In this document: piece after piece, positions 1-58,147 of the stretch
Layout: each line of letters begins with the position of its first letter
Numbering within the stretch: position 1 is the stretch's first letter
Assembly (NCBI RefSeq): GCF_004010195.1
Contig: NC_057718.1
Span: 85,760,283-85,824,282 of the forward strand
Origin: Chiloscyllium plagiosum
Taxonomy: Eukaryota
Length of the DNA stretch: 64,000 bases
Direction: 5' to 3'
Made by a program: the position numbers and the translations under genes
The notes under the pieces: generated by a model
Database searches by the model: none
What the model saw: only the letters and a program-made list of their open reading frames with translations
Told to the model about the DNA's origin: nothing

Positions 1-949
1 CTGTCAGACAGCCAATTCTCAATCCATACCAGCTTAGCCTCCTTTTAACTTCATCTTCCTGCATTCAAGAATTGAACTTGGCCTTTGAATCCTTAATAAT
101 GAAAGTTAGAATTCTAAAAGATCTGCAGATCCACGTTCAAAAATCAATTTGCTTCAACATTAAGTGGCAGATTTATTACATTTGCTCTGATGTGTGACCT
201 CCAAAAAGGAATTGCATATATATCTGGATTAGCTGGATCTTCGTTATGAACTGGCTTGATAGACTTTCAAAAAACGGAATGTGTGGAAGAATAATTGTCA
301 GGGTTCTATTGTAAAATCAAATGCAACTTACACAAACCTGAACATAAGCAATAACGACTAATGTATATATTGAACAGGTTTTGGAACTGATTCTAAACCA
401 ATACACTATATATACAATTTAGACTCTAATATTCTGGATATACATGAGGCAAATATGGGTTAATAGACAAACTGTGGCTGAACACTCCTCAGACTGCACT
501 TTAAATGGCTAATATTTCAAGGCAGATCCTACCCAAACATATTGGTCACAAATCACCAATAAAGTTCTGTCTCATTTGCAAGGGATTCCAAGTCTTCAGT
601 TGGAAGATCCATCCTTGGAATGTTTTGATGGTTTGATCTCTTATTTCAAGCCTCAGTTCTCCAAGACTCCTGAGTCTACTCCCAAAAGTCTAAATACCAA
701 CAAAATGTCAGCTTTTATTCAACATCTGCTTTATCAGGTGTCTCTAAGTTTCTTTAAACTCTAATCTTTCTCTATCTACACCAAGCAAATACAGCTTGTG
801 GGCTTCCTTCATTGCCCTCTCAATTGTACTGAACTTTCAATGGCTTCCAGGGATTTGTTTTAGCCCGATCTTTCTATATGGCAAGGTGGCACAATTCCCT
901 TTGACTTCTCTTGAGCTTTAATTGCATAGTCGCTAAAACTCTTATGCTT

Positions 950-1945
950 AGTAGGCACTTTGCATCCTCACTTCCCACACCTCGACCTTTGAGCTCCACC
1001 CCTTCAATTGCAACAAAAACTGAACCTTCCTGGTCCTCACCTTCCACCCCACCATCCTCCAGATCCAACGTATCATCCTCCACCATTTCTGCCACCTACA
1101 AACAGATTCTACCACCAGAAATATATTTCCCTCCCCATTCCTCTCTGCATTCCACAGAGACCATTCCCTCTATGACTCCCTTGTCCAAGCCCACCACCAA
1201 CCCACCCACCACTCCTGGCACCTTCCCCTGCCACTGCAAGAGGTGTAAAGCCTGCGTCCACACCTCCCACCTCACCTCCATCTAAGGCCCCAAAGGATCC
1301 AAAGGATCCTTCCATATCCAGCAGAGATTTTCCTGCACCTCCAAACACCTCATCTACTGTGTCCATGACTCTTGAGGTGGTCTCTTCTACATTAGGGAGA
1401 CAGGATGCCAACTTGTGGAATGTTTCAGAGAACATCTCTGGGATACATGCACTAAACATCCCCACCGCCTTGTGGCCGAACACTTCAACACCCTCTCCTA
1501 CTCCGCCAAGGACATGCAAGTCCTGGGCCTCCTCCACAACCAAATTCTAGCCACCCGATGCCTGGAGGAAGAGAGCCTCAGATTCCGCCTTGGGACACAT
1601 GGGATCAATGTTGATTTCACTAGTTTCCTCATCTCCCTTCCCCCACCTTATCACAGATCCAACTCTCAAACTTGGCACCGCCCTCTTGAATTGTCCTACC
1701 TGTCCATCTTCCTTCCCACCTATCTGCTCCACTCTCCATTCTGACGTATCACCATCACCCCCACCTTCATCGACCTATTGTATTTCCAGCCGCCTTTCGC
1801 CCAACCCCATCCCCCCTCCCATTTATCTCTCAGCCCCCTTGGGCCTCCCCACATTCATGATGAAGAGCTTATGCTCAAAATGTCGACTCACCTGCTCCTC
1901 AGATGCTGCCTGACCTACTGTGCTTTTCCAGCACCACACGTTTGG
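950..1945 (+). mobile_element. Penelope-like retroelement 3' part: degenerate GIY-YIG endonuclease region plus terminal repeat with a hammerhead motif
   Basis: Broken reading frame with PCHCKRCKAC, LIYC...FYIRETG...FREH, VAEHFN, MQVLGL, LEEESLRFRLGT.GIN. It is followed by a C/T-rich UTR and ATGATGA-A-GAGC-TTAT-GCTC-AAAA-TGTC at 1857-1884. Confidence 0.85.
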
Positions 1946-6839: not shown

Positions 6840-8500
6840 AATAACTAACATTTATATAGCATACTTCCAGGCCACAGACAACCTTCTATGGCCAATTAAG
6901 CATTGTGGGTGTGTGGTCACAGCTGATGTGGAGGAAGCAACTGAGTTAATTTGTGCAAGCTCCCACAAGTCCTGATGTGACATATAACTGGATGCCCTGG
7001 TTTCCAGAGTGGTGGTTAAGTTGTTGAAGGTGATTCTAAGAGAGGATTTATGTGCATTTGGAAAGGCAAGGACTGATTAGGGATAGTCAGCATGGCTTTG
7101 TGCTTGGGAAATCATGGCTCACAAATTTGATTAAGGTTTTTGAAGAAGTAACCAAGGAAACAGATGAAGGCAAAACCTACATGTTGTCGTTTACAGGGAC
7201 TTAAGCAAGTCCTTCAACAAGGTCCTGCATGATAGATTGGTTGATAAGGTTAGATCACATGCAATCCAGGGAGAAATAGCCAATTGGATATAAAATTGGT
7301 TTGATGGTAGAAGACAGAGGATGGTGGTACAGGGTTGTTATTCAGACTGCAGGCCTGTGACCAGCGGTGTCCCATAAAGATTGGTTCTGGATCCACTGTT
7401 GCTTATCATTTGCATCAAAAATTTGGATGAGAAAATTGAAAGTATGGTTAGTAAGTTTGCGGATGATACCAAAATTGGTGGTATAGTGGACTGTGAAGAA
7501 GGTTATCTAAGAGTACAAGATCTTGAACAAATGGCCAATGGGCTGAGAAGCGGCAGATAGAGTCTAATTTAGATAAATGTAAGGTGTTGTAATTTAGTAA
7601 GGCAAAACAGGACTGGATTTACACAGTTAATGGTAGGATTCTGGGGAGCGTTGTTCAACAGTGGGACATAGGTGTGTAGGTTCATGGTTCTTCGAAAGTG
7701 GAGTTGCAGGTAGACAAGGTGGTGAAGAAGGCATTTGGCATGCTTGCCTTCATTGATCAGAGCATTGAATATTGGAGTTAGGATGTCATGTTGCGGCTGT
7801 ACAAGACACAGGTGAGACCACATGTGGAGAGCTGTGTACAATTCTAATCACCCTGCTATAGAAAGGATGTTGTTAACCCAGAAAGGGTGCAGAAGAAATT
7901 TACATAGATGTTGCCAGGACTGGACAGTTGGACTTGTAAGGAGAGGCTGGAAAGGTTGAGACTTCTCTTCCTGGAGCGTAGAAAGCTGAAGGGTGACTTG
8001 AGGGGTTTATAAAATCATGAGGGTCATGAATAGGGTGAATAGCCAAAGTCTTGCCCCCAAATGTAGGGGAGTCCAATACGATTGGGCTTATCTTTAAGAG
8101 GGGAAAGATTTAAAAGGGGCCTGAGGGTGGTGCGGGTATGAAACGGGCTGCCAGTGGAAGTGGTGGAGGCCAGTACAATTACAGCATTTAAAAAGCATTT
8201 GAGCAGGTACATGGATAGGGAAGGTTGAAAGGAATTTGGGCCAAATGCAGACAAATGGGACAACTTCACTTTGGGAAATCTGATCAGCATGGACAAATTG
8301 GACTGAAGGGTCTGTTTTAGTGCTGTATGACTCTAAGACTCTCCTAAATGTCAGCCGCAGCAGTGCACTTCAAGATAACACCCTGGAATCTTTCCCTTTT
8401 TCTTGCAGAAGCTGATGAAGCCTCATTTTAAAACTCATCTGAAAATGGCCACTGTGGCATCGGGAGGGTCAGCTGGATCCTAGGCTCACGGTTCTGTCGC
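6840..8500 (-). mobile_element. Deu-domain SINE (SacSINE1/AmnSINE1-like) split by the CR1 at 7030-8342
   Basis: 3' half at about 6845-7025 (catttatatagca tail) and 5' half at about 8350-8500 (ctcatctgaaaatggc). Confidence 0.55.
7030..8342 (+). mobile_element. CR1/HER1-type LINE, 5'-truncated RT region plus 3' UTR
   Basis: Motifs SQHGFV, KFADDTKIGG and KCKVL; the reverse ORF 7569-7841 is the antisense of the RT; tail ...gctgtatgactctaagactct. Confidence 0.92.
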
Positions 8501-15652: not shown

Positions 15653-15811
15653 CTACAAATGGTTGTTCTTGGACAGGTAGGCTATCAGTGCCACGGCAAC
15701 ACCCACGTAAATGCCAGTTCCGATGGTGATTGAGAGCACAGCCAAGAACAGCGCACGTCTGGAACTTGAGCTGGCATGGTGGTAGTCTCCCTTTGCCACA
15801 CCCTTGTTGGT
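15653..15811 (-). CDS. SYNDIG1: SYNDIG1 last coding exon ([52 protein letters not shown]), transmembrane segment
   Basis: Translated by hand (too short for the ORF track). Acceptor ttctattcactcctccttag|ACC; TAG stop at 15655-15653; the C-terminus YLSKNNHL is characteristic of SynDIG1. Confidence 0.98.
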
Positions 15812-21549: not shown

Positions 21550-23281
21550 CTTACAAAGACATCCAAAGGGATTTTATGAACATTTTAAAGGAGAGAATAG
21601 GTCCCCTTAAAGACCAACAAGGCCATCTAATATATGAAACAGCAGGAGATGAGTGAGATACAAAATGAGTATTTTGCATCAGTATTTATTGTGGAGAAGA
21701 ATATTAAATCTAGAAAACTCGGGGAAATAAATAGTGATACCTTGAAAACTGTCCTTATTGCAGAAGAGGAGACATCTTAAAATGCATAAAGGTGAATAAA
21801 TCCCTGGGACCTGATTGGGTTTATCCCAGAACTTTGTGGGAATCTAGGGGAATGATTGCTGAGCCCCTTGCTGAGATATTTTTATCAATAGCCACAAGTG
21901 AGGTGCCTGAAGACTGGAGATTGACAGCACAATGTTAGTCAATCAAGAAAGGTGGTGAGGGAAAGCCAGGGAACTATAGACTAGTGAGGCTGACAGCAGT
22001 TGTTGGAGGAGGGTGGGGTTCTGAAGGATAGGATTTACATGTATTTGGAAAGACAAGGACTGATCAGGGAGAGTCAACATAGCTTTGTGCATAAGAAATT
22101 GTATCTCACTAACTTGATTGAATTTTTTGAAGAATTGACAAAGAAGATTGATGAAGGCAGAGTGGTATATGTTGTCTATATGGACTTCAGCAAGGTGTTT
22201 GACAAGGTTCCACATGATAGATTGGTTAGCAAGGTTATATCACATGGAATCCAGAGGGAACTAGATAATTGGATACAAAATTGGCTTGAAGGTAGGAGAC
22301 AGAGGGCAGTGGTGGATTATTTTTTGGACTAGAGGCCTCTGATCAGTGATGTGTCACAAGGATCAGTACTGGATCCACTGCTATTCACATTTATTTAAAT
22401 GATTTGATTATAAATGTAGGCAATGAAGTGAGGAAGTTTGCAGATGACACCAAAGTTGGTGATGTAGTGGACTGTGAAAAAGGTTGCCTTAGATTACAAA
22501 GGGTGGAGGAGAGGCAAATGAAATTTCATTTAGACAATTGCAAGGTGTTGCATTTGGGTAAGGCAAATCAAGTGCAGGATATAGACAGTTAATGGTGTGG
22601 CCCTGGGAGTGTTGCCAAACAAAGGGACCTTGGAGTACAGGTGCATAGCTCCTTGAAAGTGGAGTGGCAGGTAGAGAGGGTGGTGAAGGTGGTGTTTGGC
22701 AAGCTTGCCTTTATTGGTCAGTGCATTGAGTATTTGGAATAGTGCCTTGAATTCTTCTCTCCCTGCTATAGGAAAGATGTAGGTAAACTTGAAAGGATTC
22801 AGAAAATAAATTACAAGGATATTGTCTGGGTTAGAGGGTTTGAGCTAGAAGGAGAGGTTGGATAGGCTGGGGCTTTTCTCACTGGAGCATTGGAGGCTGA
22901 TGGGTGACCATATAGAGGTTTATAAAATCATGAAGGGCATGGATAAGGTGAATAGTCAAGGTGTTTTTTCCCCAAGTGGAGGAGTCCATAACTAGAGGGC
23001 ATGGATTTAAGGAGAGAGGGAAAAGATGGAAAAGGGACCTTTGGGGCAATGTTTTCACTCAGCAGGTGGTGCATGTATGGAACAAGCTGCCAGAGGTAGT
23101 GGTGGAGGCTGGTACAATTACAATATTTAAAAGGCATCTGGTTAGTTATACGAATAGGATGGGTTTAGAGGGATATGAGCCAAATGCTAGCAAATGGGAC
23201 TAGATTGATTTGGGATATCCGGTCGGCCTGGATGAGTTGGATGGAAGGGTCCGTTGCTGTGCTGTATAACTTTACGACTCT
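21550..23281 (+). mobile_element. CR1/HER1-type LINE, about 1.7 kb 5'-truncated, with internal deletions
   Basis: ORF 22000-22332 (SQHSFV..LTNLIEFFEE..VYMDFSKVFDKVPH), KFADDTK and TRGHGFK; tail gactc. Confidence 0.95.
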
Positions 23282-24389
23282 CCGACTGTATAAATGAGAA
23301 GAATTTGACTCATGATTTATTCTTGTAATATTCCTGACTACATGCAAGTTATTAATATCTGATGGAGGTCTAGTGCTCAATTCTACAATTTTTCAACAAA
23401 TGGCCATGAAATTGTTCAGTGTATTGCTGATGGTACATTAAAACATGAGGGGTTTCTTAGCAACCAAGTAGGTTTCTAAGCAACAGTCATGTAAAACAAT
23501 TGAACAGATAATGAAGAAGTACATATTGAAATGTTTGTGAGCTTTTCTCAAGACATTCAATTTGTTTTCCCAATGGGAAACTGAGACCAACCTTGTATTA
23601 ATTTATTGAACATTTTCAAATTTGGATCAAATTCAATTTCTTACAGTCAGTGAGATAAATGGAGCTGGGTGTTTATCCTGCGAATGCTGAATGTCTCCAT
23701 ATCAAGTGGTATCAGCTACGGTTCAGTGATAGCATCTTGCTTCTGAGGTAAAAGTGGTGGATTCCAGTCCCAGTCTAGAGAACTGGGTCGGCATTCTCGC
23801 TCCTGCATCAGGTAGTGCAGTGTTGGGCAATTTCCTGGTTCATCTGCACTCACATTTGGAAGCTATGCTCTGAATCTTTGTTCCAGGGGTGTATGTGGGA
23901 TGGAGACACACCCACCACCCATGCATATGGATCAAAGGAGCTGCAGATTGGCAATCTCTATGAGTTTGTCTTGCTTGTTTTCTTGAAGCAAGGCTTTTTA
24001 GGTCTTACTATTCATATGTCTTCACTCTATGTCATACGTGCTAACCCAAGAGCCCTAGCTATCTCCTTAGCTCCCACGGCAGCTTAGTGCCAATTCATGC
24101 CAAATACGCTAACTACTTCTAATGGCTGTCATATATTCCATTCTGACCCAATGCTCCAACTTATCCCCATGGCTCCTATCGCCTCTGTGCCACCTTATTG
24201 CCAACTCATGTCACTCCCAGCTGTTCCGTTTTAGATTCTACTGGTACTTAATGCCAATTCACAAATGCACCTAGCACTCTTTGTCTTTACATCCTCCACA
24301 TCAACCAACTCAGGGTCTACCTTGGGCAGATCTGCGATTAAACAAAATTCTAAATATCTGTTGCAGAGTTTACTATTTTCTAATCAGGG

Positions 24390-26989: not shown

Positions 26990-29900
26990 GATAGAGTCAT
27001 GCAGTCTCAAAGCTTGGACTCCAACTAGTCCATGCTGACCATGTTGCCAAAGTAAACTAGTCCCAACTGTCTGCACTTGGCCCATATGCCTCCAAACCTT
27101 TCCTATTCATGAACTTATCCAGATGCCTTTTAAACATTGTAACTGTCTGCATCTATCACTTTCTCTGGCAGTTCATTCCACATATGAACCACTCTCTAAA
27201 AACATTGCCCTCATGTCCTTTTTAGAACTTTCTCCTCTCACCTTAAAAATATGCCTCCTAGTTTTAAATGCCCCCACCCTCAGGAGAAGATCCTTGTCAT
27301 TCACCTTTGCCTATCATCCCTCATGATTTCATAGACTTCAATAAGGTTGCCCTTCAACTTCCTATGCTCCAGTGAAAACACTCCCAGCCTTTCCAGTCTA
27401 TTTTTAGATCTCAAACCCTCCAACATCCCAGTGCATCTTTTCTGAACTATCAGTTTGATAATATCTTTCCTAAAGCAGGGTGGCCAGAACTGTACACAGC
27501 ACTCCAGAAATCAGGACAGGACTTAGAAACACAAACATAGAAGATGGGAGCAGGAGGTGGCCATTCAGCCCTGAGAGCCTGCTTTGCCATTCATCATCAT
27601 GGCTGATTGTCCAACTCAATAGCCTAACTCAATAGCCCAATCCTGCTTTCTCCCTATTACCTTTGATCCCATTTGCCTGAAGTGAATCTAGCCACCCTTG
27701 AATACATTCAATGTTTTGGCATCAACTACCTGTGGCAATGAATTTCACAGGTTCTCACCACTCTTTGGGTGAAGAAATGTCTCATCTCCATCTTAAATAG
27801 TCCACCCCAAATCCCCTGGTTCTGGACATACCCACCATTGGGAACATCCTTCCTACATCCATCCAGTCTAGTCAAAGAATCAGTCATAGAGATGTACAAC
27901 ATGGAAACAGACTCTTTGGTCCAACCTGTCCATGCCGACCAGATAGCCCAACCCAATCTAGTCCCAGCTGCGAGCACCCAGCCCATATCCCTCCATCCCT
28001 TCCTATTCATATATCCATCCAGATGCCTTTTAAATGTTGCAATTGTACCAACCTCCACCACTTCCTCTGGCAGCTCACAGTGGCCCAGTGGTTAGCACTG
28101 CTCCCTCACAGCACCAGGGACCCAGGGTTCAATTCCCACCTCAGGCAACAGTCTGTGTGGAGTTTGCACATTCTCCATGTGTCTGCGTGGGGTTCCTCCG
28201 GTGCTCCCGTTTCTTCCCACAGTCCAAAGATGTGCAGGTTAGGTCAATTGGCCATGCTAAATTGCCTGTAGTGTAAGGTGAAGGGGTAAATGTAGGGGAA
28301 TGGGTCTGGGTGGGTTGCTCTTCGGAGCGTCAGTGTGGACTTGTTGGGCCGAAGGGCCTGTTTCCACACTAAGTAATCATACACGTACCACGAGTAATCA
28401 TTTCACGCCTGCATGAAAAAGTTGTCCCTTAGGTCTTTTATATCTTTCCCCTCTCACCCTAAACCTATGCCCTCTAGTTCTGGACACCCCAAACCCAGGG
28501 AAGAGACCTTGTCTCTTTATGCTATCCATGCACCTCATGATTTTATAAACCTCTATAAAGGTCACCCCTCAGCCCTGTTAGAATTTTATAAGTCTCTGAG
28601 ATTCCCTCCTCCTTACTCATTTGAATTCCAGCGAAAACAATCCCAGCCTAGTCAATCTCTCATAAGTCAGTCCTGCCATCCCTGGAATCAGCCTGGGAAA
28701 CCTTTGCTGGACTCCTTGGAATGCAAGAGCATCCTTTCTCAGAAAAGCAGACTAAATCTGCACTCAATATTCTACATATGGCCTCACCAAGACCCTATAG
28801 AACTGCAATGATACATCCCTGCTTCTGTACTCGAAACCTCATGCAATGAAGGCCAATATACCATTTGCCTTCTTTCCTGTCTGCTGCAGCTGCATGCTCA
28901 CCTTCACCAACTGGTACACGAGGACACCCAGGTCCCTCTGCATACTACCTGAATGGCTGTACATTGAGAGAGGGGAGTAAGCTGCCTTCTTGCTTTTGCT
29001 TCCAAAGTGAATACCTCGCATTTATCCAAAATTATTCTGCATCTGCCATTGATTTGCCCACTCACCCAAACTGTCTAGATCATGCTGAAGCATCTCTGCA
29101 TCCTTGTCACAGTTCACTCTCCCACCCAACTTGGTATCATCTGCAAACTTTGAGTTGTTACATTTAGTTCCCTCATCCAAATCATTAATATATATTGTGA
29201 GTACCTGGGGTCCCAGCACCAAGCCCTGTGGCACCCCACTAGTTACTTTCCTCCAATTTGAAAAGTAATGATAAATGTATAAAGTAAGGTCCTGGGGAAT
29301 GGTGCTGAACAACAACACGAGTGCACATTCATTGCTCCTTGAAATTGGAGTCTCAGGTAGACAGACTAGTGAAGGCGGTGTTTGGTATGCTTACCTTTCT
29401 TGGTCAGAGTACTGAGTACAGGAGTTGGGAGGTCATGTTGCAGCTGTACAGGACATTGGTTAGGCCATTTTTGGAATATTGCGTGCAATTCTGGTCTTCC
29501 TGCTACAAAGAAGGATGTTGTGAGGGTTTAGAAAAGATTTACAAGGATGTTGACAGGTTTGCAGGGTTTGAGCTATAGGGAGAGGCTGAATAGGCTGGGG
29601 CAGTTTTCCCTGGAGCTTCAGAGATTGAGCGGAGGTTGATAAAATCATGAGGGGCATGGATAGGGTAAATAGACAAGGTCTTTTCTCTGGGGTTGGGGAG
29701 TCTAAAACTAGAAGGCATAGGTTTAGGTGAAGGGGGAAAAGATTTAAAAGGGACCTAAGGGACAACTTTTTCACGCAGAGTGTGATACATTTATGGAATG
29801 AGCTGCCAGAGGAAGTGGTACAGACTGGTACAATTACAACATTTAAAAGGTTCTGGATAGGTATACGAATAGAAGCAATTCACAGGGATATGGGCCAAAT

Positions 29901-30150
29901 GATGGCAAATGGGACTAGATTTCTTTCTGATATTGGGTCGGCATGGGCGAGTTGGATCGAAAGGTCTGTTTCCATGCAATACAGCTCTATGACTCTAAGA
30001 GGTCTCACCAACAGTCCTCTTCAACCTCAATATGATGTCCCAACTCCTATACTCAAATGTCTGAGCAATGTAGGCAAGCGTGCTAAACACCACCTTAATC
30101 ACCCTGCCTACCTACCTGGGCCACAAATTTCAAAAGAATTGTGTGTTTGA
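26990..30150. mobile_element. Nested cluster of four CR1 LINE fragments and one HE1 SINE
   Basis: CR1(-) about 26990-27508/29998-30150; CR1(+) about 27508-27526/29264-29997; CR1(-) about 27527-27875/28576-29263; CR1(-) 3' end about 27880-28075/28379-28575; HE1(+) about 28076-28378. The interrupted halves rejoin colinearly. Confidence 0.85.
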
Positions 30151-31009
30151 ACCCCTCAGTCGCTCTCTCTCCCCAAATCTGTGGATGATTATGGGTTGGG
30201 AACAGTGATACTGTGTCTAGGAGGTTGCAACCACTGAGACAGAGGGCTTTAGGATCTAGTGGTGTAATAAGTCTGAGGAGAGAGATCCGGAGGTCCAATA
30301 GTGTAAAAAGCAACCTGGGAGCATGGGATGGTAGTATGTTCCAATATTGTTGGCAAAGGAAGATCTATTATCCTCTTGGGAGAATGGAACTCAGGAGAAT
30401 GGGACCCAAATTGTTAGTGACACTTATCAAGCTATCAGATTAACAGTACATTGAACATTTTCCTCGTGAGTGGTGGGTGTCCATATTTATGTTGCTGCTT
30501 TTAAGCATTTAAGGATTTTTTCCTTAAATTAGTGAATAGAAAAGAGCTTTATTCATACAGCACCTCTAGACATCCCAAACCGCTTTACAAATAAAGATGT
30601 TCTATTGAAGTGTACCCATTATTGATACAAGAGAGATTTGGAAAGGTTTTTAAAAAGATTTTCAATGAGTTAAAAATTCAAGCAGGGCTTTCACAGTTAC
30701 AAAGGATTGAGTCAGCCAATTATTAATCTGCTGTCAAAAACCAGCCTTTCCTTTTAAAAAAAAATCACTTGCCATTTTGTTTAAAAAAGGATCAAATGCT
30801 GCCTTTAATTTAACTCCCGTCATTCCTGAGATCAGACAATGTACAGGGTGATTTCCTCTGAACCTGACTGGTTCTATAAGAGAGGGAGAGTGGGTAACGA
30901 GAGCTCAGTAAAGGGGAGGCAAGTGAATGGTAGTAAAGGTGCATCGGGTGGGTGATGGAGAGCGAGGTGGTGAGGGCTTAAGGCAAACCAACACAGACAG
31001 AGTTGTAGG

Positions 31010-31212
31010 GTGAAAGTGAGGACTGCAGATGTTGAAGATTAGAGTCGAGAGTGTGGTGCTGGAAAAGCACAGGTCAGGCAGCATCTGAGGAGCAGGAGAA
31101 TCGACATTTCGGGCAAACTCCTGATGAAGGGCTTTTGCCCAAAATATCGATCTTCCTGCTCCTGTGATGTTGCCGGACTTGCTGTGCTTTTCCAGCACCA
31201 TACCCTTGATTC
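31010..31212 (+). mobile_element. Palindromic PLE terminal-repeat derivative (family 1) with a central hammerhead
   Basis: About 31042-31117 is the imperfect reverse complement of about 31134-31203; CTGATGA-A-GGGC-TTTT-GCCC-AAAATATC-GA at 31121-31150. Confidence 0.8.
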
Positions 31213-31295: not shown

Positions 31296-31608
31296 GGGCA
31301 GCACGGTAGCACAGTGGTTAGCACTGCTGCCTCACAGCTCCAGAGACCCGGGTTCAATTCCCGCCTCAGGCGACTGACTGTGTGGAGTTTGCACGTTCTC
31401 CCCGTGTCTGCCTGGGTTTCCTCCGGGTGCTCCGGTTTCCTCCCACAGTCCAAAGATGTGCAGGTCAGGTGAATTGGCCATGCTAAATTGCCCATAGTGT
31501 TAGGTAAGGGGTAAATGTAGGGGGTATGGGTGGGTTGCGCTTCGGCGGGGCGGTGTGGACTTGTTGGGCCGAAGGGCCTGTTTCCACACTAAGTAATCTA
31601 ATCTAATC
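31296..31608 (+). mobile_element. Near-intact HE1/V-SINE
   Basis: GGGCAGCACGG start, A box TAGCACAGTGG, B box GGTTCAATTCC, V domain, many CpGs retained, (TAATC)3 tail. Confidence 0.93.
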
Positions 31609-33131
31609 GCGGTTTGTGACTCTGGCCTGGTTGGCGTTGGGAGTTACAATATGGTCGACGGGTAGAGCTGATAATCAAACTGTGCCTTCTCAAACTGCTG
31701 TTGCCCTCTCAATGTCGAGTTTTGAATCGGTTTCAATTGACCAGAATGGAAGCAGATTGCACAACATCACTACGCTCCATGTGAAGAAGCTACGATGTTA
31801 CTTACTTTCATTTCAGGGACAAACAGGGTCTCTGTCAAGCTGTGGGTAACTAATACTAGAGGCTTGAAATATTTCCAATTAGGGTTGCATGCAGAAAATT
31901 CACAAACCTATTGCTGTGATGCCTCAGTGCACAGTGCTTGCAGAAAGTTATTTCCTTTGAGGTTCTTAGACTGCAATTTAATATAGTCCTGAATTTTACA
32001 GTGTTATCTACCTTAATTGTAATGCAATCCTAGGGACCAGTCCTATAACGCACAAAGTGCCAGGCTGCACACCCACAATACAACACAAAAATCAAACTGC
32101 ATCCGATAGCTTTAGAAGAGACTTTACAATTATCTTTAATGAGAGTTACTGCTGACCATCTAAATATTACTGACAACACTGTACCTCCCCCTCAGAAATA
32201 CCAGTCAGATTCACCTAAAGTAATCGCTTGCTTGCATGCAGTAGAATGGTTGTCAGAGTTATTCCCTGTTTTATACACAAAGGGTTCACTGAAATGAAAT
32301 GTGACTGATGCCAAAAATCCTGGGATGATGACAAAAAAAAAATGTAGTGGAAAGATGCAGGAGGTTGGGTTGTCAATGTAACATTTAAACGACTCTCTTT
32401 CAGTCATTTCAGTGAAGATCTCTGTTCCTACTCTGCAAACCAGGCTGTGGGGTGAATACGGCCTGTTAACAAGGAGACGGATAAAGCAATGGTTAGAATT
32501 TTCTAATCATAAATAGACCAAGAGGAGAAACGACTTTTCATTGTTTATGTGAAAAAACAAAGCTGCAGCTTACTGTTCCTGTTTCAATAGTCACAGGGAC
32601 CACCCAATCAAAAACTGGGGGGCTAACTTTCAAAGGATCTTAATGGTCAGCCTGTTATTACATTTAACCTAAGTTGCAGTTAATGCTAATAGTCATTATC
32701 CACTGCTCTCAACTCCTCTTGTCCATGAGGGGATAAATGTATATGGCATAATCACAACAAAAGCATCCACGTCTTGTAAGGGGTGTATCTTCAACTGTTG
32801 CCGATCACTACCACCTTGACAACATGTGATGCATTAATCCCATGACTTATACAGATAGCAGTTGTAATCTACTTAGTCCCAAGTATATACTCTCATTTCC
32901 GAGTGAAGAACACACCTTGTTTCATCTGTCCTGTGATTGGATTTGATGTCAAAGAGAACAACGTATCATGTTGGCAGCATGTCTTTCTGAAGATTTGACT
33001 ATTAGCCTCAACCTTTCAAACATTGTAGAAGAACAGGTATGGAAGGGAAATGACTAGCAAGTTCCAGTTCACCATGCATTAGCAGTTCAGGAGCTCTGTA
33101 CATACCTGCCTATCATTCCTTATTTAGACCC

Positions 33132-34018
33132 ATAGAGTCATGGAGATGTACAGCACAGAAACAGACTCTTTGGTCCAACTCATCCATTCCAACCAGATAT
33201 CCTAAATAAATCTAGTCCCATTTGCCAACATTTGGCCCACATTCACCTAAACCTTTCCTATTCATAAAACCATCCCGGTGCCTTTTAAATTGGATCAGCC
33301 TCTTAGTTCCTCTAGTAACTCATTCCATACATGCACCACCCTCTGCATGAAAAAGTTGCCCCTTAGGTCCCTTTTAAATCTTTCGGCTCTCACCCTAAAC
33401 CTATGCCCTCTAGTTTTGGACTCCCCCAGCCGTCTATTTACTCTATCCGTGCCCCTCATGATCTTACAAGCCTCTATAAGGTCTCCCCTCAGCCTCTGAA
33501 GCTCCAGGGAAAACAGCCTCAGCCTATTCAGCCTCTCCCTGTAGCTCAAATCCTCCAATCCTGGCAACATCCTTGTAAATCTTTTCTGAACCTTTTCAAG
33601 TTTTACAACATCCTTCCTATAGCAGGGAAATCAGAGTTGCACACAGTATTTCAACAGGGGCCTAACCAATGTCCTGTCCAACTGCATCATGACCTCCCAA
33701 CTCCTATATTCAATGCACTGACCAATAAAGGAAAGCATACTAAATGCCTTCTTCACTATCCTATCTACCTGCAGTTCAAGGAGCTATGAACCTGCACTGC
33801 AAGGTCTCTTTGTTCAGCAACACTTCCCAGGACCTTACCAGTGTAAATGTCCTGCCCTGATTTGCCTTTCCAAAATGCAGCACCACACATTTATCTAAAT
33901 TAAACTCCATCTACCACTCCTCAGCCCATTGACTCATCTGATCAAGATCCTGTTGCACTCTGGGGTAACCTTTCTCTGTGCCTACCACACCTCCAATTTT
34001 GATGTCATCTGCAAACTT
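33132..34018 (-). mobile_element. CR1/HER1-type LINE 3' part
   Basis: ORF 33295-33570 (LPGLEDLSYRERL..RLRGDLIE..TRGHRF); ends at KFADD; tail atagagtca on +. Confidence 0.93.
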
Positions 34019-35032
34019 CTTGGATCACAACTCACTCTAAGCAATAGGTCAGGCCCCAGTAACTTGTTTAAACCTGTAACAGATTAAGAGGTATATGTTT
34101 ATCTATTGTGAAGTTTAAGCAGTATTAAATAGCTCACTCTGGAAAATCTAATTTTAAGCAGAACTCATTGGCATGGAGACTCCATTATTATTGCTTAAAT
34201 ATAGTCATATCATGACTGACTAATATCTTCCAATGCCATGTCTACCTGATCTCTCTCTGGCAATAAGGAATCAAACCAATTATTTAATACTTCTCTTGTT
34301 TCACAATCATTACATGGAATTTTATCCAACACATCCTCTTGCAGCCCTATTCCAATTTTCATTTTGTACATTATTAATACAAAATATATTATTTGTTTGC
34401 TTTATGCTTCCTGCCTTCCTATTAACTGTTTTAAATGTCTCTAATTTTCATTGCTCCCTTGTCCATTCTCACCCCTTTTGTCCATGTCCTTGCCATCGCT
34501 TTTCCCTGTTTGTATATTCAGCCCTTGATTATAATTAGTATTTCTTTTTTCTTGTTTTTAAACATCAGAACTTATTTTTTCAATGGAAACTGAACAGTCT
34601 AAAATGTTACTGATCATTGTTCCCCATCATTGTTTGCTAATTTTTTTTCATTTTATTTGCAGTTCTATTTTGAGTTCCTTAAAATAAACTTTTCACCAAT
34701 TTATTACCTTGGACCGGTCTTTCTCAATTATTACCTTGAAGCATATTGCATTAAGCCCATTATTGTCTAGTTGTTCCCTGCTTTAACTTTACTCATCTAC
34801 TTTGGTTAATTCTCCCTTAAAATATTCAATAGCAAATGTTCCTTTGCTGAGAGTTTTGGGTTTAGAAAGGTGTCTGAAAACACATTAGAGATTTAATTCT
34901 CTTACAGGCATCAATGGAAACAGAAATAGCATCGGCAATTCAGTCTCTCAATCACTGCTCTGACTTTCAATTAGATCATAGTTGATCTTCCACCTCAATT
35001 TCCATTTCCTGCACTATTCCCATTCCCTTCAT

Positions 35033-35405
35033 TGAGTCATAGAGATGTACAGCATGGAAATAGACCCTTCGGTCCAACTCGTCCATGCAGACCAGATATC
35101 CTAACCTAATCTAGTCCCATTTACCAGGACTTGACCCATATTCCTCTAAACCCTTCCTATTCATGTACTCATTCAGATGCCTTTTAAATACTGCAACTAT
35201 ACCAGCCTCCACTACTTCCTCTGGCAGCTCATTCCATACACGCACCACCCTCTATGTCAAAATGTTGCCCCTTAGGAGCCTTTTATACCTTTCCCCTGTC
35301 ACCCTAAACCTCTGCCCTCTAGTTCTGGGCTCCCCCACCCCAGGGAAAAGGTTTTCTCTATTTACCCTATACATGCCTATGAGGTCACCCCTCAGCCTTC
35401 GATGG
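35033..35405 (-). mobile_element. CR1 3' end inserted in an older CR1 3' end (about 34905-35560)
   Basis: gagtcatagagatgtacagcatggaaatagacccttcggtcc tail; nearly the same as 33132-33500. Confidence 0.88.
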
Positions 35406-42314: not shown

Positions 42315-42452
42315 TTCGTGTGAAAGGTAGAAGGCAGCGATTCCCAAAGGCCAGAAGCAGCAGAGCATGGAGAAAACGCTAAGGCCCAGATGGTCCCTGG
42401 GTGGTATCATCAGAAAATTGTCCTCACTTTCCGTCTCACTTGAGTAATCACT
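42315..42452 (-). CDS. SYNDIG1: SYNDIG1 second coding exon (46 codons, [46 protein letters not shown]), start of the CD225/dispanin domain
   Basis: Acceptor ttttttgattttgtgcag|AGT and donor GAA|GTAAGT; 138 nt, phase 0/0; CCFWPLGI motif. Confidence 0.98.
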
Positions 42453-44540: not shown

Positions 44541-46324
44541 GAATAAAGCATTCATCTTAAACACCTTAACCAGCCAAAGTGCTACATGCCCTACCGAGAA
44601 TTAATGTGTGTTTTTTTAAAAAATAAGGGCTAGAGAAAGAGGGCTTTGTCAACCTTTATCACTATCCAAGATCTCAAAAGACAGTAGTGGTCTTCCTGTC
44701 TTCTCTTCTTACTAGGTACATAAGACATACTCTCTCTCTCTCTCGTAGAATTTTATTGTTTTATACTTCTCTTCTGGTTGTTTGAAATCCTCTCTATTTT
44801 ACCATTACCTGTTGCTTGAAGGAGTTGCCAAACAGATTTGAAGTTGCCATGTGACTTTGTGCAAGAATGTTTGTGAACAAATGTAGATGCTCCAGCCAAT
44901 GGTCACAAAACGAAGGAACGATTGGTGCTGTAATGATACTGGACATTGATCTAGCTGACTTGCTGTCAACGGTCACATATCACCTGGGCATGGAAACCCT
45001 TTCAATTCCGTTAGTGGGCAGAGTTGACATGTGATACCCAGAAAATGCTGTGCAGGTGGTGTATGGCACCCTTTAATCCTGGTGGAGACATAGATCACTG
45101 TACAGGGGTCTCTTTAGCAAAGAGAATGAAATGTAGAATGCCAGTGACCTCTCTTACGTAACAGTGGATGGAAGACTGAGATGCTGTAAACATCTCCAGT
45201 CCCAACTTATAGAAAGAAAGACACAGGCACAGTCATTCTCACTGGCACTGCTGCTCTCACCCATCTCCTATAATTCTATTGTGGCGTTTGCAGGTAGCAG
45301 ATTTCAGTAAGAACCTCCTAAAGTAGGATGGAAACCCCAAGACAAAGATGTTCATCTGCAGAGGGCTCTTTCTCCACCTCCTCCTCTTTACTCTTAAAGC
45401 AGCCTACCCTACTCTGTGTGACCTCTGTTCATTCTCCCGATCACTGTCTTTTCCAAAGGAGAACGGTAACAACTGAACTCATGCCTGGGAACAAATGGTT
45501 TATGTAGAAACCATAAAGTCAGCACAAATTCCTTCAACAAGAGCCAAATCTGGTCACTTGTAATCTTTTGCAGCTTTAAACTTCAGAAAGCTCAAAACAT
45601 TTGTAGAATTGAAGTCAAACCTAGTGACTAATCTGTGTTGTGGAAGAGGGGTGGAGGTTACCTTCCTTATACATATCAAACTGTGAGAGTTTAAGCTTGA
45701 GTGTGAGAGATTCACTGCAGGAGTCACATCAGTGTTTCCTGTTGATTAATGCCAAGATCTGCCTGCCCTGTGCATTTACTCAGCCTTTCACTTTGACTTT
45801 GTCTCAACGCAGTGTCCAGCAAAGCTCACCCAAAAGATATATGTGTACCCCATTAGCTGCCTTTCTGATCCTCAAATAACAACCATGGCATCCAAACAGT
45901 GAAGGTTACCCATCCCAATGTCAAACAGCTGAGACCATCCTTCCAACCAATTATTTCTGCATTATAGTTTAGGCTCTATTGGAAACAAAATTAAAAAAAA
46001 TAAATTGTTATTCTCACAAAAGGGCATAAAAAACATTCAATTGTGGACTACTTCAGAAATCTTATTCAATCAACTAACATGACTTTGAAACTAAAACGGA
46101 GTAAAATCTGATTAAGATGTTCATTTCTGAAAAAGGAGAAGAGAACCACCTCATGCTGGAAATCAGAAACAATCTCTGTTTTGGTTTCTGTTCATTCCAA
46201 AGTTTATGAAGTGATATTATAAATAATGGGAGGGTGTTGGTGGTGTAAAAATGATCTCACTATAATGGGGTAAATGTGCATCATCCCATTATTTGGGGAA
46301 GAAATGCAGTGCACATTCTATACC

Positions 46325-47105
46325 CGCAACTAAATCAGCTGGGTCAAAGGGCCAAGCAGTGGCAGATGCAGTTTAATTTAGATAAATGTCATTTGTTGCA
46401 TCTTGGAAGGCCAAACCAGGACAGGACTAACACAGTTAATGGTAAGGCCCTGGGGTGTGATGTCGAAAAAAAGAGACGTGGGTATGTAGTTCCTTTAAAT
46501 GATTCCCTTCCTGATGTAGGGCTTATGTCCAAAACATCGACTCTCCTGCTCCTCGGATGCTGCCTGACCTGCTGTGCTTTTCCAGCACCACTCTAGACAC
46601 TGATCTCCAGCAAGTGCTGTCCTCACTTTCTCCTCATTCCTTTAAAGTTGTGTGACAGGGTGGTGAAGGCAGCATTTGAGATGCTTTCCTGCATTGGTCA
46701 GAGTATTGAATATAGGAGTTGGGACGTCATTTTGCAAGTGCACAGGATGTAGGTGAGGCCACTTTTGGAATACCACATACAGCTCTGGTCGCTCGGCTTT
46801 AGGAAGGATATCATTAAATTAGAAAGGGTGTAGAAAAGATTTACAAAGATGTTGCTGGGATTGGAAGATTTTAGTTGAGAGAGACCAGATAGGCTGGGAC
46901 TTTTTTCCCTGGAGCATAGGAGGTTGAGGGGTGAGCCTATAGGGGTTTATAAAATCATGAGGGTGGGGTGAAAAGCCAAGATCTTTTCCTGAGGGTGGGG
47001 TAAATTCAAAACTAGAGGGCACAGACTAAAGGTAAAAGGGGAAGGATTTAAAAGGAACCTGTGGGACAGAATTCTCACACACAGGTTGGTTTGTGTATGG
47101 AATTA
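46325..47105 (+). mobile_element. CR1 LINE 3' part carrying a hammerhead-element insertion
   Basis: QWQMQFNLDKCHLLHLG motif; aaactagagggcac; interrupted at 46500-46636. Confidence 0.88.
46500..46636 (+). mobile_element. Stand-alone 137-bp hammerhead element (family 1) with a 10-bp target-site duplication
   Basis: TTCCTTTAAA at 46490-46499 and 46637-46646; CTGATGT-A-GGGC-TTAT-GTCC-AAAACATC-GA at 46511-46540. Confidence 0.85.
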
Positions 47106-47290
47106 ATTGAAAAAGGTGTTGCTGGAAAAGCACAGGTCAGGCAGCAACCGAGGAACAGGAGAATCAAAGTTTTAGGCATGAGCCCTTCTTCAGGAATGAG
47201 GAAGGTGTGCCAAGCAGGCTAAGATAAAAGGTAGGGAGGAGGGACTTGGGGGAGGGGCGTTGGCAATGCGGTAGGTGGTTTCAGGTAGGT

Positions 47291-47324
47291 TTCCTGAAGA
47301 AGGGCCTGTGCCCGAAACGTCGAA
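47291..47324 (+). ncRNA. Minimal type-I hammerhead ribozyme with intact catalytic core
   Basis: TTC|CTGAAGA|A|GGGC-CTGT-GCCC|GAAA|CG|TC^|GAA. Stem I is TTC/GAA, stem II is 4 bp, stem III is the palindrome ACGT. Predicted cleavage after GUC at 47321. Confidence 0.8.
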
Positions 47325-47511
47325 TCTCCTGTTCCCTGGATGCTGCCTGAGCAATAAAGTTTCAACTTTGATCTCCAGCATCTGCAGACCTCACTTTCTC
47401 CTCCGGAAAGAGGTTAAGGTGAGGGTGATCGGCCGGAGAGGGGGTGGGGGCAGAGAGGTCGGGAAGAAGATTGCAGATCAAGAAGGCGGTGCTGAGTCTG
47501 AGGGTTGGGAC

Positions 47512-47768
47512 NNNNNNNNNNNNNNNNNNNNNNNNNNNNNNNNNNNNNNNNNNNNNNNNNNNNNNNNNNNNNNNNNNNNNNNNNNNNNNNNNNNNNNNNN
47601 NNNNNNNNNNNNNNNNNNNNNNNNNNNNNNNNNNNNNNNNNNNNNNNNNNNNNNNNNNNNNNNNNNNNNNNNNNNNNNNNNNNNNNNNNNNNNNNNNNNN
47701 NNNNNNNNNNNNNNNNNNNNNNNNNNNNNNNNNNNNNNNNNNNNNNNNNNNNNNNNNNNNNNNNNNNN
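47512..47768. other. Assembly gap (257 N)
   Basis: Run of N. Confidence 1.
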
Positions 47769-49111
47769 GGGGTCTGTTTGGAGGTGGCGGAAATGACGAA
47801 GGATGATACGATGTATCTGGAGGTTGGTGGGGTGGTAGGTGAGGACCAGTGGGGTTCTGTCCTGGTGGCAATTGGAGGGGCGGGGTTCAAGGACGGAGGA
47901 GCAGGAAGTGTACTTCATTTTAAATGTAAAACTAGGCCATTTAATAAGTAATTTCAGAAGGTACTTTGTGATGCAAAACATTAGAAATCTGGAATCAATG
48001 CCCTCAAAATATGATGGATTCTGGGCCAAATTGTATGTTCAGGACTTGAAAGTTTTCCACAAATTTTGTGGGATAAAGGTATTGGTAGATATAGAGCAAT
48101 GGCAGGTCAATGGAGTTAAGGTGCAGATTGGCCAGGACCTATTACAATGGAGGAAAAGGGGCGGAATGGCTGACCACTATAGGTTAGTGGGACCCTGATT
48201 TTGCTGCTGTATCAGGCTGGGATAGATAAAGAAAAGGAGACCCAATTCTGCGATGTCTGCTCCCATTTCCACCTTCTTCCATTTTCAAGGACGCGGGACA
48301 TTGGTGAAATGTTGTTAGCGTTCATTCAGAAATCCCCAACACTACAGGTTTCATTGCAGGTGTGGCGCTTTCTGAGCTCTTGCAATCTCCAAGGGGTTGC
48401 TGCTGACTTTGGAAATCTTCTCAAGATGATATGGTTCATTTCAGGTCAGATGCGTTGTGAAATATGTCAGAAGCCTATCTAAATTTTGGGTCCTATTTTG
48501 CAGGTAAATTTAAAAATGCGTTGACAACTTGACACTTGAAAAAAATTCTTCAACATTTAATTAAAGTGTGATTTCATTACTGTGATTGATCATAGGCATT
48601 TGTTCGTACAAATGTAAGTGGCCATAAAACTGACCAGCAAAGTGAAGGCATTCAGACGCTTTAGGGTACTTTATCCAGTGGATCAATATTCTTTTGCATT
48701 GAACAATATGATTACGACTGTCATGTATTAGTTGAACCAAGTGCTTTTTTGCCTTTCATTGGCAGGCCAGCCATCTGATCAGCCTTTGCTCAGTGGAACA
48801 GATGGCTGAGTTTTACAACTGACAACTCAGTCATCTTTTCAGCATTTGAAATGTGAAACCCCTGGGATCTGTTTCACTGCATGAAAGGCTTTAATATATT
48901 CAGACCCTAGGCTCTTTGCCGACCAGCCTATGCCATGAAATCTCATTATGAAAGTTTGGTGAAACTTCAAGCCCCATTAATGGGGCCAATTTTATTTCTG
49001 GCTAGACATTTAATGAGAGGTCTATTTTCCATCCTTTGGGGAAGAAATGCATTTTAAATGTCAGCTTAAGTGACTTGTGGTTTTCAGAGATCATAGAGCC
49101 GAGAGATCAGA

Positions 49112-49452
49112 GGAGAGGCAATGGGTTAATGGTATTGTCACTGAACTGTTAACCCAAAGACCCAAATTCTACTCTGGGGACTTGGATTTGAACCCTACCA
49201 CAGCAGATGGTGGAATTTGAATTCAATAAGGAAATCTGGAATTAAGAACCTAATGAGGACTGTGAATCTATGGCTGATTGTTGGAAAAACTCATCTGGTT
49301 CACAAAACTGCTATCCTTACCTGGTCTGGCCTACATGTGACTCCAGACCCACAGCAACATGGTTGACGATTAACCATCCTCTGGGCAATTAGGGATGGGC
49401 AATAAATGTTGGCCTAGCTAGTGACACACTTGTCCTGTGAATAAATAAAAAG
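49112..49452 (+). mobile_element. tRNA-derived SINE with a LINE-shared tail
   Basis: ggcaatgggttaatgg A-box-like head; cctggtctggcctacatgtgactccagacccac core; gggcaataaatgttggcctagc tail. Confidence 0.8.
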
Positions 49453-50011
49453 AAATCCCACTGCTCAAGTGATGCTGGCCAATCACAGGCCAACAGCTCT
49501 TAATTATAGGCAAAACTACTGGGAGTAGTAGTGGCAGCCACTGCAATGCACCCATCTTAGGGCTCAGAATTGGCAAGGAACCCAGGCCATAAATGAATGA
49601 AGGCAAGATGCAGGTGAGGAAAGGGGGAGGGGATGCCTGAGAGTCACTCCCCCTTCCTGATGCAAGGTATGACTGAAAATGAAGACCTTGTTGGGAGCTC
49701 ATGAGTCAAAACAACTAGCAGAAGGATCAATGGGCATTAACTGCCTCCTTAAGGACTCCAGTGGGTGGTGGTAGTATGGGAAAGCTGTCTACCTATGAGC
49801 ACTTATGCCCCTGCCCCCACCCCCCCCCCCCCCCAAAAAACCCGGCACCATCTTACCCAATGAAATGCCCCTCAACCTCCAAATCCTATTGGCTGAAGCA
49901 TTAATGACCCAGTCACCGTACAGGAAACTAAAACCATCGCATCTCTGGACAGCAATGATGACTGAATTATTTGGTTTTAACATAATGGAGATACAGGAAG
50001 ACATCATGTAG

Positions 50012-57664: not shown

Positions 57665-58147
57665 CTCCAGCTCTTGGAAGTCATCCTCGTCGTCCACATC
57701 GTAAGACAGGGTTTGGACTTTATTGTCATCAGCTGATAGGTCGATGAATTGGCTGTCTCCAAAATCCAGCCCATCCTTTGTGGGGGATCTGCTTTCAATG
57801 AAAGTTGTTTCACAGCAATCTGAACTATTGCTCTCACTCCAGGGTCTCAGCATGCTCTCAGAGTACAAAATGATATTGGGTCGGTACTGGGCCTCAACGG
57901 TGTGCTGCAAGGTGCTGGGGTTGAGGACTTGTTGCTGGCCAGAGTCATTCCTGCTCCTCTCAATGTAGTTGTGAGATGGGAAACTCCCCAATGTGTGTTC
58001 CTGGTATTGAGGAGCTGAGTAAACGGATCCCAATCCATCCTTGCCATCTATCGCCAAGTCTTTGGTGTTGATTAGACCATTCCTCTTCCCAGTCTCATTG
58101 GCTGCTTTATGACTCAAACTCTTGCTTTGCTCCACAGGATTCTCCAT
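57665..58147 (-). CDS. SYNDIG1: Synapse differentiation-inducing gene protein 1, first coding exon (161 codons, MENPVEQ...EDDFQELE)
   Basis: Translation contains GKRNGLINT, YRPNIILYSE, DCCETTFIE.RSPTKD, FIDLSADD and TLSYDV..E..FQELE, matching vertebrate SynDIG1 as recalled. ATG at 58147 (the ORF-track start at 58195 is a TTG). Donor GAG|GTAGGA after 57665. Likely acceptor ttttttcatcag| gives an exon start at 58245. Confidence 0.96.

What the first reader, a model, noticed from the sequence alone, without database searches (positions are those of the whole stretch)
47291..47324. Intact minimal hammerhead ribozyme inside a SYNDIG1 intron
Seen: TTC-CTGAAGA-A-GGGC(CTGT)GCCC-GAAA-CG-TC-GAA contains every conserved core nucleotide (CUGANGA, GAAA, UH), a 4-bp stem II and a TTC/GAA stem I. 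Stem III is reduced to the loop-less palindrome ACGT. Known: Penelope-like elements carry minimal type-I hammerheads with palindromic stem III that are thought to cleave as dimers. Inference: this copy could self-cleave after C47321 if transcribed from the + strand (antisense to SYNDIG1) and paired with a second copy.
Basis: partly seen in the sequence, partly recalled or inferred. Interest (0 to 1): 0.8.

Follow-up and report, generated by a model that had tools for sequence, protein, structure and literature searches.

The report
Young Penelope hammerhead copy in intron
The motif is a real, complete minimal hammerhead-ribozyme sequence, but it is one of about ten thousand identical copies carried by a Penelope-like jumping gene, and it lies backwards in an intron where it is likely inert, so it is an ordinary example of a known kind.

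Summary
47291-47324 (+) has every minimal-hammerhead core base, a 4-bp stem II, a 3-bp stem I and a loop-less ACGT. It is not special to this gene. The exact 34-mer occurs 10,196 times in the genome, and a relaxed core 76,851 times. It heads a 113-bp terminal-repeat (pLTR) fragment of a Penelope-like element; a long copy encodes an RT, a GIY-YIG match and a Neptune-type linker. The fragment is young and inserted into the 3' UTR of an older minus-strand copy (19 of 19 relatives are continuous across the site). It is antisense to the host gene, has no intact partner in the window, and its flank is predicted to unfold it. In 1.8 Mb of introns, intact motifs are 46 sense to 46 antisense, G12 decays at the CpG rate, and 9 of 232 copies start at the cut site. 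Pair swaps between families suggest the fold is selected in source elements. This class was described in 2014, and the scan has noted it before in this and other genomes.

The parts
47291..47324 (+). Minimal type-I hammerhead motif: stem I 47291-93/47322-24, core CTGAAGA 47294-300, extra A 47301, stem II 47302-05/47310-13, GAA 47314-16, palindrome ACGT 47317-20, predicted cut after C47321
   Evidence: only descriptor hit in the window
47291..47403 (+). Young short pLTR-plus-tail copy of a Penelope-like element (subfamily with loop CTGT). It starts at the hammerhead's 5' edge and ends at the distal 3'-end peak; it has one 17-nt internal deletion and is otherwise identical to a relative
   Evidence: 113 of 113 aligned bases identical to a copy in L235; 60 of 60 identical to the 3' pLTR of the long element L231; the deletion junction occurs 2 times genome-wide
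47279..47290 (.). 12-nt junction filler: TTCAGG is the reverse complement of the start of the motif (CCTGAA), and GGTAGGT repeats the target just upstream. It can pair with the catalytic core
   Evidence: sequence; predicted hairpin over CCUGAAG
47105..47278 (-). Older Penelope-like copy of another subfamily: 3' UTR, decayed hammerhead (47196-47163; G12 and the palindrome are lost) and pLTR end
47405..47511 (-). 3' UTR of the same older copy, continuous with 47278 in relatives (GG duplicated at the insertion site)
   Evidence: 19 of 19 relatives continuous across the site; 24 RNA reads carry the 47276-47405 joint
47512..47768 (.). 257 N inside the older element (assembly gap or withheld stretch; not resolved)
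47769..47910 (-). Fragment of the older element's ORF (region between RT and endonuclease)
   Evidence: 38 of 44 aa identical to the RT/GIY-YIG ORF of L231, E 2e-23
57665..58147 (-). Host gene, first coding exon (SYNDIG1-like; name recalled)
   Evidence: open frame and GT donor
42315..42452 (-). Host gene, second coding exon; the intron between this exon and the previous one holds the motif
   Evidence: Pfam CD225 E 3e-13; AG and GT sites
15653..15811 (-). Host gene, last coding exon

Best explanation
The motif is the minimal hammerhead at the head of the terminal repeat of an abundant Penelope-like retrotransposon, left here as a young 113-bp fragment inserted into an older copy, antisense in an intron, and it is likely inert at this site. 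Shown: the sequence, its copy number, the nested insertion, the orientation and the link to an RT/GIY-YIG ORF. Inferred: in the active element two RNAs would pair through ACGU/ACGU to build the missing stem III and cut after C17, probably with help from the element's protein. Inferred: the genomic fragments were copied from uncut RNA that ran from the hammerhead's 5' edge to one of two internal start sites of reverse transcription. Inferred: this copy is intact because it is young, not because the host keeps it.
For: Copy number: 10,196 exact and 76,851 relaxed matches, reversed controls 0. Element: L231 has an 893-codon open frame (its first ~190 codons are a short repeat) with RVT_1 (E 5e-8) and GIY-YIG (E 3e-4, just under the curated cut-off), a CX4CxxC linker and a 3' pLTR identical to 47291-47350. 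Nesting: 19 of 19 relatives join 47278 to 47405. Youth: no substitution in 113 nt, while the host copy's hammerhead has decayed. No copy-level selection: among 134 whole-motif copies G12 is A in 18 and its CpG partner C11.1 is T in 23, whereas non-CpG core bases change in 1-6. No strand bias in introns of five glypican genes: 46 to 46 (95% CI for sense 0.39-0.61), 35 to 35 without inverted pairs; intact versus broken by strand p = 0.86. 5' ends: 9 of 232 within 3 nt of the cut site, 96 of 232 at the motif's 5' edge; 3' ends form two peaks about 50-65 and 95-100 nt past the cut, as for the tail in PMC11167929. Folding: P(stem II) is at most 0.01 with 60 nt or more of this locus's upstream flank, against 0.76-0.90 in the element's native context. 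Fold kept in source elements: at least four distinct stem sets keep the core and swap pairs in stems I, II and III.
Against: No cleavage assay was possible, so inertness is inferred. With short flanks the active dimer is only 1.7-2.8 kcal/mol above two free monomers, and this subfamily has a better stem I (3-4 bp) than most (2 bp). Family RNA is present on both strands in one poly(A) run (1,269 reads), so partners in trans may exist. The strand test covers 92 motifs in five genes and cannot see a mild bias; cutting inside an intron may also be harmless and leave no bias. The descriptor demands pairing, so the pair swaps are partly built in. The count of 96 overstates true 5' ends, because only four upstream references were used; of 71 copies with a clean edge, 30 run on into the 3' UTR and 41 stop there.
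Confidence: 0.88

Rival explanations
1. This copy is transcribed antisense and cuts after C47321 by pairing in trans with RNA from another of the tens of thousands of intact copies, with no benefit to the host.
For: Perfect core and a self-complementary ACGU; small energy gap to the active dimer with short flanks; 76,851 potential partners; family reads on both strands.
Against: No plus-strand gene was seen and the copy lacks upstream pLTR sequence; the flank is predicted to unfold the motif; no pile-up of read ends anywhere on 47100-47511 (a weak test: poly(A) single-cell library, about 2% read, mostly other copies, species not confirmed); published activity is low even for linked dimers (PMC4209133).
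Confidence: 0.08
2. The host has domesticated this ribozyme to regulate the gene, like the conserved intronic hammerheads of amniotes.
For: Intronic position and intact core; such cases are described (PMC6155905, passages).
Against: It is antisense to the pre-mRNA, identical to 10,195 other copies, and young. The copy on the sense strand beside it is broken.
Confidence: 0.02
3. The motif only looks like a hammerhead; in these elements it serves as a protein-binding, promoter or endonuclease-recognition site and never cuts.
For: Inserted copies do not start at the cut site; hammerhead mutants did not block insertion in vitro for an anole element (PMC11167929); Naiad elements spread without canonical hammerheads (PMC8557442, passages).
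Against: All catalytic bases and three paired regions are kept across families whose stems differ in sequence; the anole motif does cut, with C3G/G8C rescue (PMC11167929).
Confidence: 0.1

Closest known systems
Minimal hammerheads (min-HHR) in pLTRs of metazoan Penelope-like elements (Cervera & De la Pena 2014, PMC4209133)
   Same: Type-I core, extra base between positions 9 and 10.1, G10.1-C11.1 pair, palindromic 15.2-16.2 with no loop III, place in the pLTR, many solo and inverted copies, several families per genome.
   Different: Shorter stems than the schistosome examples (stem II 4 bp against 7-8; stem I 2-4 bp against 4-5). Copy number is about ten times the 4,000 and 9,000 given there for coelacanth and Xenopus (76,851 + 18,639 for two patterns). 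The parts read do not mention sharks.
Anolis Poseidon element PAc (Frangieh et al. 2024, PMC11167929)
   Same: Hammerhead at the pLTR/ORF junction, two preferred 3' ends giving an optional tail, insertion from uncut RNA, no read ends at the cut site.
   Different: This family has the CX2-5CxxC linker that marks Neptune/Nematis rather than Poseidon (PMC8557442); protein-assisted cutting is not tested here.
Non-LTR retrozymes (10.64898/2026.07.22.740005; PMC7229834, listing only)
   Same: Small non-coding repeat with a type-I hammerhead, related to pLTRs.
   Different: This insertion is a single unit, not a tandem array.
Conserved intronic hammerheads of amniotes (RECK and others; PMC6155905)
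   Same: Type-I hammerhead in an intron.
   Different: Those are conserved across species at one place; this one is a minimal, antisense, young repeat with 10,196 identical copies.

Membership tests
PLE minimal hammerhead (min-HHR) | Conserved core CUGANGA, GAAA, UH | tested here: met
PLE minimal hammerhead (min-HHR) | Extra base between 9 and 10.1, and G10.1-C11.1 pair | tested here: met
   A47301; G47302-C47313
PLE minimal hammerhead (min-HHR) | Palindromic 15.2-16.2, no stable helix III | tested here: met
   ACGT here; AGCT in a second family (24 of 92 hits)
PLE minimal hammerhead (min-HHR) | Lies in the pLTR of a Penelope-like element | tested here: met
   identical motif 3' of the RT/GIY-YIG ORF in L231
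PLE minimal hammerhead (min-HHR) | Families with compensatory changes in the stems | tested here: met
   I.1 C-G 78, A-U 10; I.2 U-A 57, A-U 24, C-G 10; II.3 G-C 57, A-U 23, of 92. The descriptor requires pairing, so this is partly built in.
PLE minimal hammerhead (min-HHR) | Self-cleavage as a dimer | not testable with these tools
   energy models only
EN+ Penelope-like element, Neptune/Nematis type | One ORF with RT and C-terminal GIY-YIG | tested here: met
   L231: RVT_1 33.4 bits (cut-off 29.6); GIY-YIG 21.5 bits (cut-off 22.6, E 3e-4)
EN+ Penelope-like element, Neptune/Nematis type | CX2-5CxxC linker between RT and endonuclease | tested here: met
   C-X4-C-xx-C in the L231 and L234 ORFs; definition from PMC8557442
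EN+ Penelope-like element, Neptune/Nematis type | 5'-truncated copies, inverted pLTR, optional 30-40-bp tail | tested here: met
   19 of 71 clean-edge copies have an inverted repeat upstream; two 3'-end peaks about 35-40 nt apart
EN+ Penelope-like element, Neptune/Nematis type | RT phylogeny places it in Neptune rather than Nematis | not tested
   no reference RT set was fetched
Canonical type-I hammerhead | 6-bp helix I with loop-loop tertiary contact | tested here: not met
   3-bp stem I; no Rfam hammerhead match
Non-LTR retrozyme | [quoted passage not shown] | tested here: not met
   single intact motif in the window
Domesticated intronic hammerhead | Present in the host pre-mRNA (sense strand) | tested here: not met
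   antisense to the exons
Domesticated intronic hammerhead | Conserved at the orthologous site across species | not testable with these tools
   no related genome is held; the copy has no substitution against its family

The most novel reading that the evidence does not exclude
This genome carries at least 95,000 sequence-perfect minimal hammerheads (76,851 + 18,639 for two families), spread through introns on both strands. At that density unrelated transcripts could supply each other's missing stem III, so that dimers formed in trans, perhaps helped by the element's protein, cut or re-join host pre-mRNAs genome-wide. This copy would be one such site on an antisense transcript.
Probability: 0.06. 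Interest if true: 0.6.

Novelty: new member of a known kind. Interest (0 to 1): 0.14.

Why it matters
For this locus it matters little: it is a young transposon fragment. For the family, two side results are useful. Inserted copies rarely start at the cut site, which supports from genome data the in-vitro finding that Penelope-like elements insert uncut RNA. Intact motifs are not depleted on the sense strand of introns, which suggests that single minimal hammerheads do not harm host transcripts. With about 10^5 intact copies, this genome is a good place to test what these ribozymes do in vivo, which is still open.

Tried and rejected
Rfam scan of 45000-50000: 8 weak matches, none a hammerhead. 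The loose core pattern in the window was not above chance. First idea, that the two opposite-strand copies at 47105-47403 were one fold-back insertion: rejected, because they belong to different subfamilies, differ in decay, and relatives are continuous across 47278/47405. Idea that the 17-nt deletion defines a small non-autonomous subfamily: rejected, 2 matches genome-wide. Idea that copies start at a capped 5' end and gain an extra G: not supported; G precedes the edge in 1 of 22 solo and 3 of 19 inverted copies against a background of 0.21. Exact target duplications of 7 nt or more were found in 5 of 22 solo copies. Sequencing runs: no RNA holder listed; this is no evidence either way. Run X22 laid 0 reads, so it is no test. 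Whether the host intron is transcribed on the plus strand stays open. The Lunse et al. paper on dimer cleavage is not held; I know it only from the review passage in PMC6765202. No independent name for the host gene was obtained. Literature searches: the one with 'hammerhead ribozyme', 'Penelope' and 'shark' listed one paper, where 'shark' refers to the shape of the motif. The 2026 preprint reports retrozymes in one chondrichthyan. Supplements were not read and may list shark motifs.

Full report
Observation. The 34 bases at 47291-47324 are as described: a 3-bp stem I, the core CTGAAGA, one extra A, a 4-bp stem II with a 4-nt loop, GAAA, CG, TC and GAA. The predicted cut is after C47321. A loose core pattern is not above chance in the window. 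A full descriptor finds only this site in the window, 92 sites in 1,799,000 bases of other introns (94,906 of them N) and none in the reversed control. Rfam gives no hammerhead match, as expected for a motif without stem III. The host gene is on the minus strand, with coding exons 58147-57665, 42452-42315 and 15811-15653 and a CD225 domain. The motif is intronic and antisense.

It is a repeat. The exact 34-mer has 5,083 + 5,113 = 10,196 matches in the genome. With position 7 and loop II free there are 76,851. A second family with a different stem I, stem II and palindrome has 18,639. All reversed controls were 0. The window itself holds at least six more family copies; the five with a whole motif shown have broken cores.

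The element. [quoted passage not shown] It is followed by a repeat identical to 47291-47350. Its linker has C-X4-C-xx-C, the mark of Neptune/Nematis elements in PMC8557442 (passages). No tree was built.

This locus. 47291-47403 is identical to a relative in L235 apart from one 17-nt deletion, whose junction occurs twice genome-wide. The flanks belong to an older minus-strand element: an ORF piece at 47910-47769 (38 of 44 aa identical to L231), 257 N, 3' UTR at 47511-47405 and 47278-47197, and a decayed hammerhead at 47196-47163. All 19 relatives fetched (19 of its 39 matches other than the window itself) run straight from 47278 into 47405. So 47279-47404 is a later insertion with a 2-bp duplication and a 12-nt filler.

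Family behaviour in introns. I fetched 180 stretches between exons of five glypican genes and turned them to the gene's sense. Intact motifs were 46 sense and 46 antisense, and 35 and 35 without inverted pairs. A profile of the sequence 3' of the cut site gave 344 hits; 232 scored 40 bits or more and were analysed. Of these, 134 hold the whole motif: 31 of 71 sense and 29 of 63 antisense copies are intact (p = 0.86). The catalytic G12 has changed in 18 of 134 copies, like its CpG partner (23) and unlike non-CpG core bases (1-6), which is neutral decay. Only 9 of 232 copies begin within 3 nt of the cut site, while 96 appear to begin at the motif's 5' edge. That 96 is too high: of 71 copies with a clean edge, 30 run on into the UTR, 19 have an inverted repeat and 22 are solo. 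The 3' ends form two peaks about 35-40 nt apart.

Is the fold real? Across at least four stem sets the core is the same while pairs change: I.1 C-G/A-U, I.2 U-A/A-U/C-G, II.3 G-C/A-U/C-G, and 15.2-16.2 C-G/G-C. The descriptor requires pairing, so this is partly built in, but it points to selection in the source elements.

Would this copy cut? Alone it has no stem III. The active dimer of the 34-mer (-11.0 kcal/mol) lies above two monomers (-13.8) and the free co-fold (-17.9). The gap to two monomers is 1.7 kcal/mol with short flanks, 6.7 for 47260-47403 and 22.7 for 47200-47450. With 60 nt or more of local upstream sequence, stem II is predicted lost (P at most 0.01) but kept in the native context (0.76-0.90). 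There is no intact partner in the window. One poly(A) single-cell run laid 1,269 reads on both strands, mostly from other copies, with no pile-up of ends; the second run laid none. This is a weak test.

Mechanism. Shown: a young terminal fragment of a Penelope-like element. Inferred: source RNAs pair through ACGU to form a double hammerhead, probably with help from the protein. Inferred: inserted fragments come from uncut RNA. Inferred: this copy is silent or misfolded.

Comparison. PMC4209133 (parts 1-2 of 4 read) defines this motif, reports about 4,000 and 9,000 copies in coelacanth and Xenopus, no cutting as monomer and low cutting as dimer. PMC11167929 (parts 1-2 of 4 read) shows protein-assisted cutting, insertion from uncut RNA, two internal start sites of reverse transcription and no read ends at the cut site. 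The preprint 10.64898/2026.07.22.740005 (part 1 of 5 and passages) covers one chondrichthyan. PMC6765202 and PMC6155905 were seen as passages only. Lunse et al. was not available, and no supplements were read. Earlier notes of this scan reach the same reading at other loci of this and other genomes; they are not independent evidence.

Verdict. A correct catch of a known kind of motif: new member, interest 0.14. The unusual feature is the copy number of the family, not this copy.

Noticed in passing
L235:439-1304 (G000:C1, about 26.522 Mb): Four same-strand copies of this subfamily's pLTR about 220-290 bp apart, three with perfect motifs: a retrozyme-like tandem in which dimers could form within one RNA.
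   Followed up: no
L051-L230 (glypican introns): Further minimal-hammerhead families: CAC/GTG stem I with a 5-bp stem II and AGCT palindrome (18,639 exact-pattern copies), and families with GCA/TGC, CCA/TGG or TCA/TGA stem I and longer stem II. Their link to an ORF was not checked.
   Followed up: partly
window 47291 and family copies: Many copies start at ATT-CCTGA, the motif's first bases; the context (TCATTCC or TTATTCC) fits an initiator consensus (recalled) and also the ATT preference of a Penelope endonuclease (PMC11167929). The cause is unresolved; no extra G was seen.
   Followed up: partly
window 905-1940 (+): Older Penelope-like copy with RT end, endonuclease region, 3' UTR and a decayed hammerhead at about 1857.
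   Followed up: partly
window 31009-31204: Fold-back pair of decayed pLTR copies on opposite strands, next to a tRNA-like short repeat at about 31302-31598.
   Followed up: no
window 46654-47108, 7686-8344, 22795-23283, 29354-30000, 33131-33792, 35029-35377: Many 3' fragments of a LINE-like element (CR1/L2 type by recall) in both orientations.
   Followed up: no
L064, L165, L186: Three intronic sites with two intact motifs on the host-sense strand within 1.3 kb (6 of 92 hits): better candidates than this copy for cutting within a pre-mRNA.
   Followed up: no
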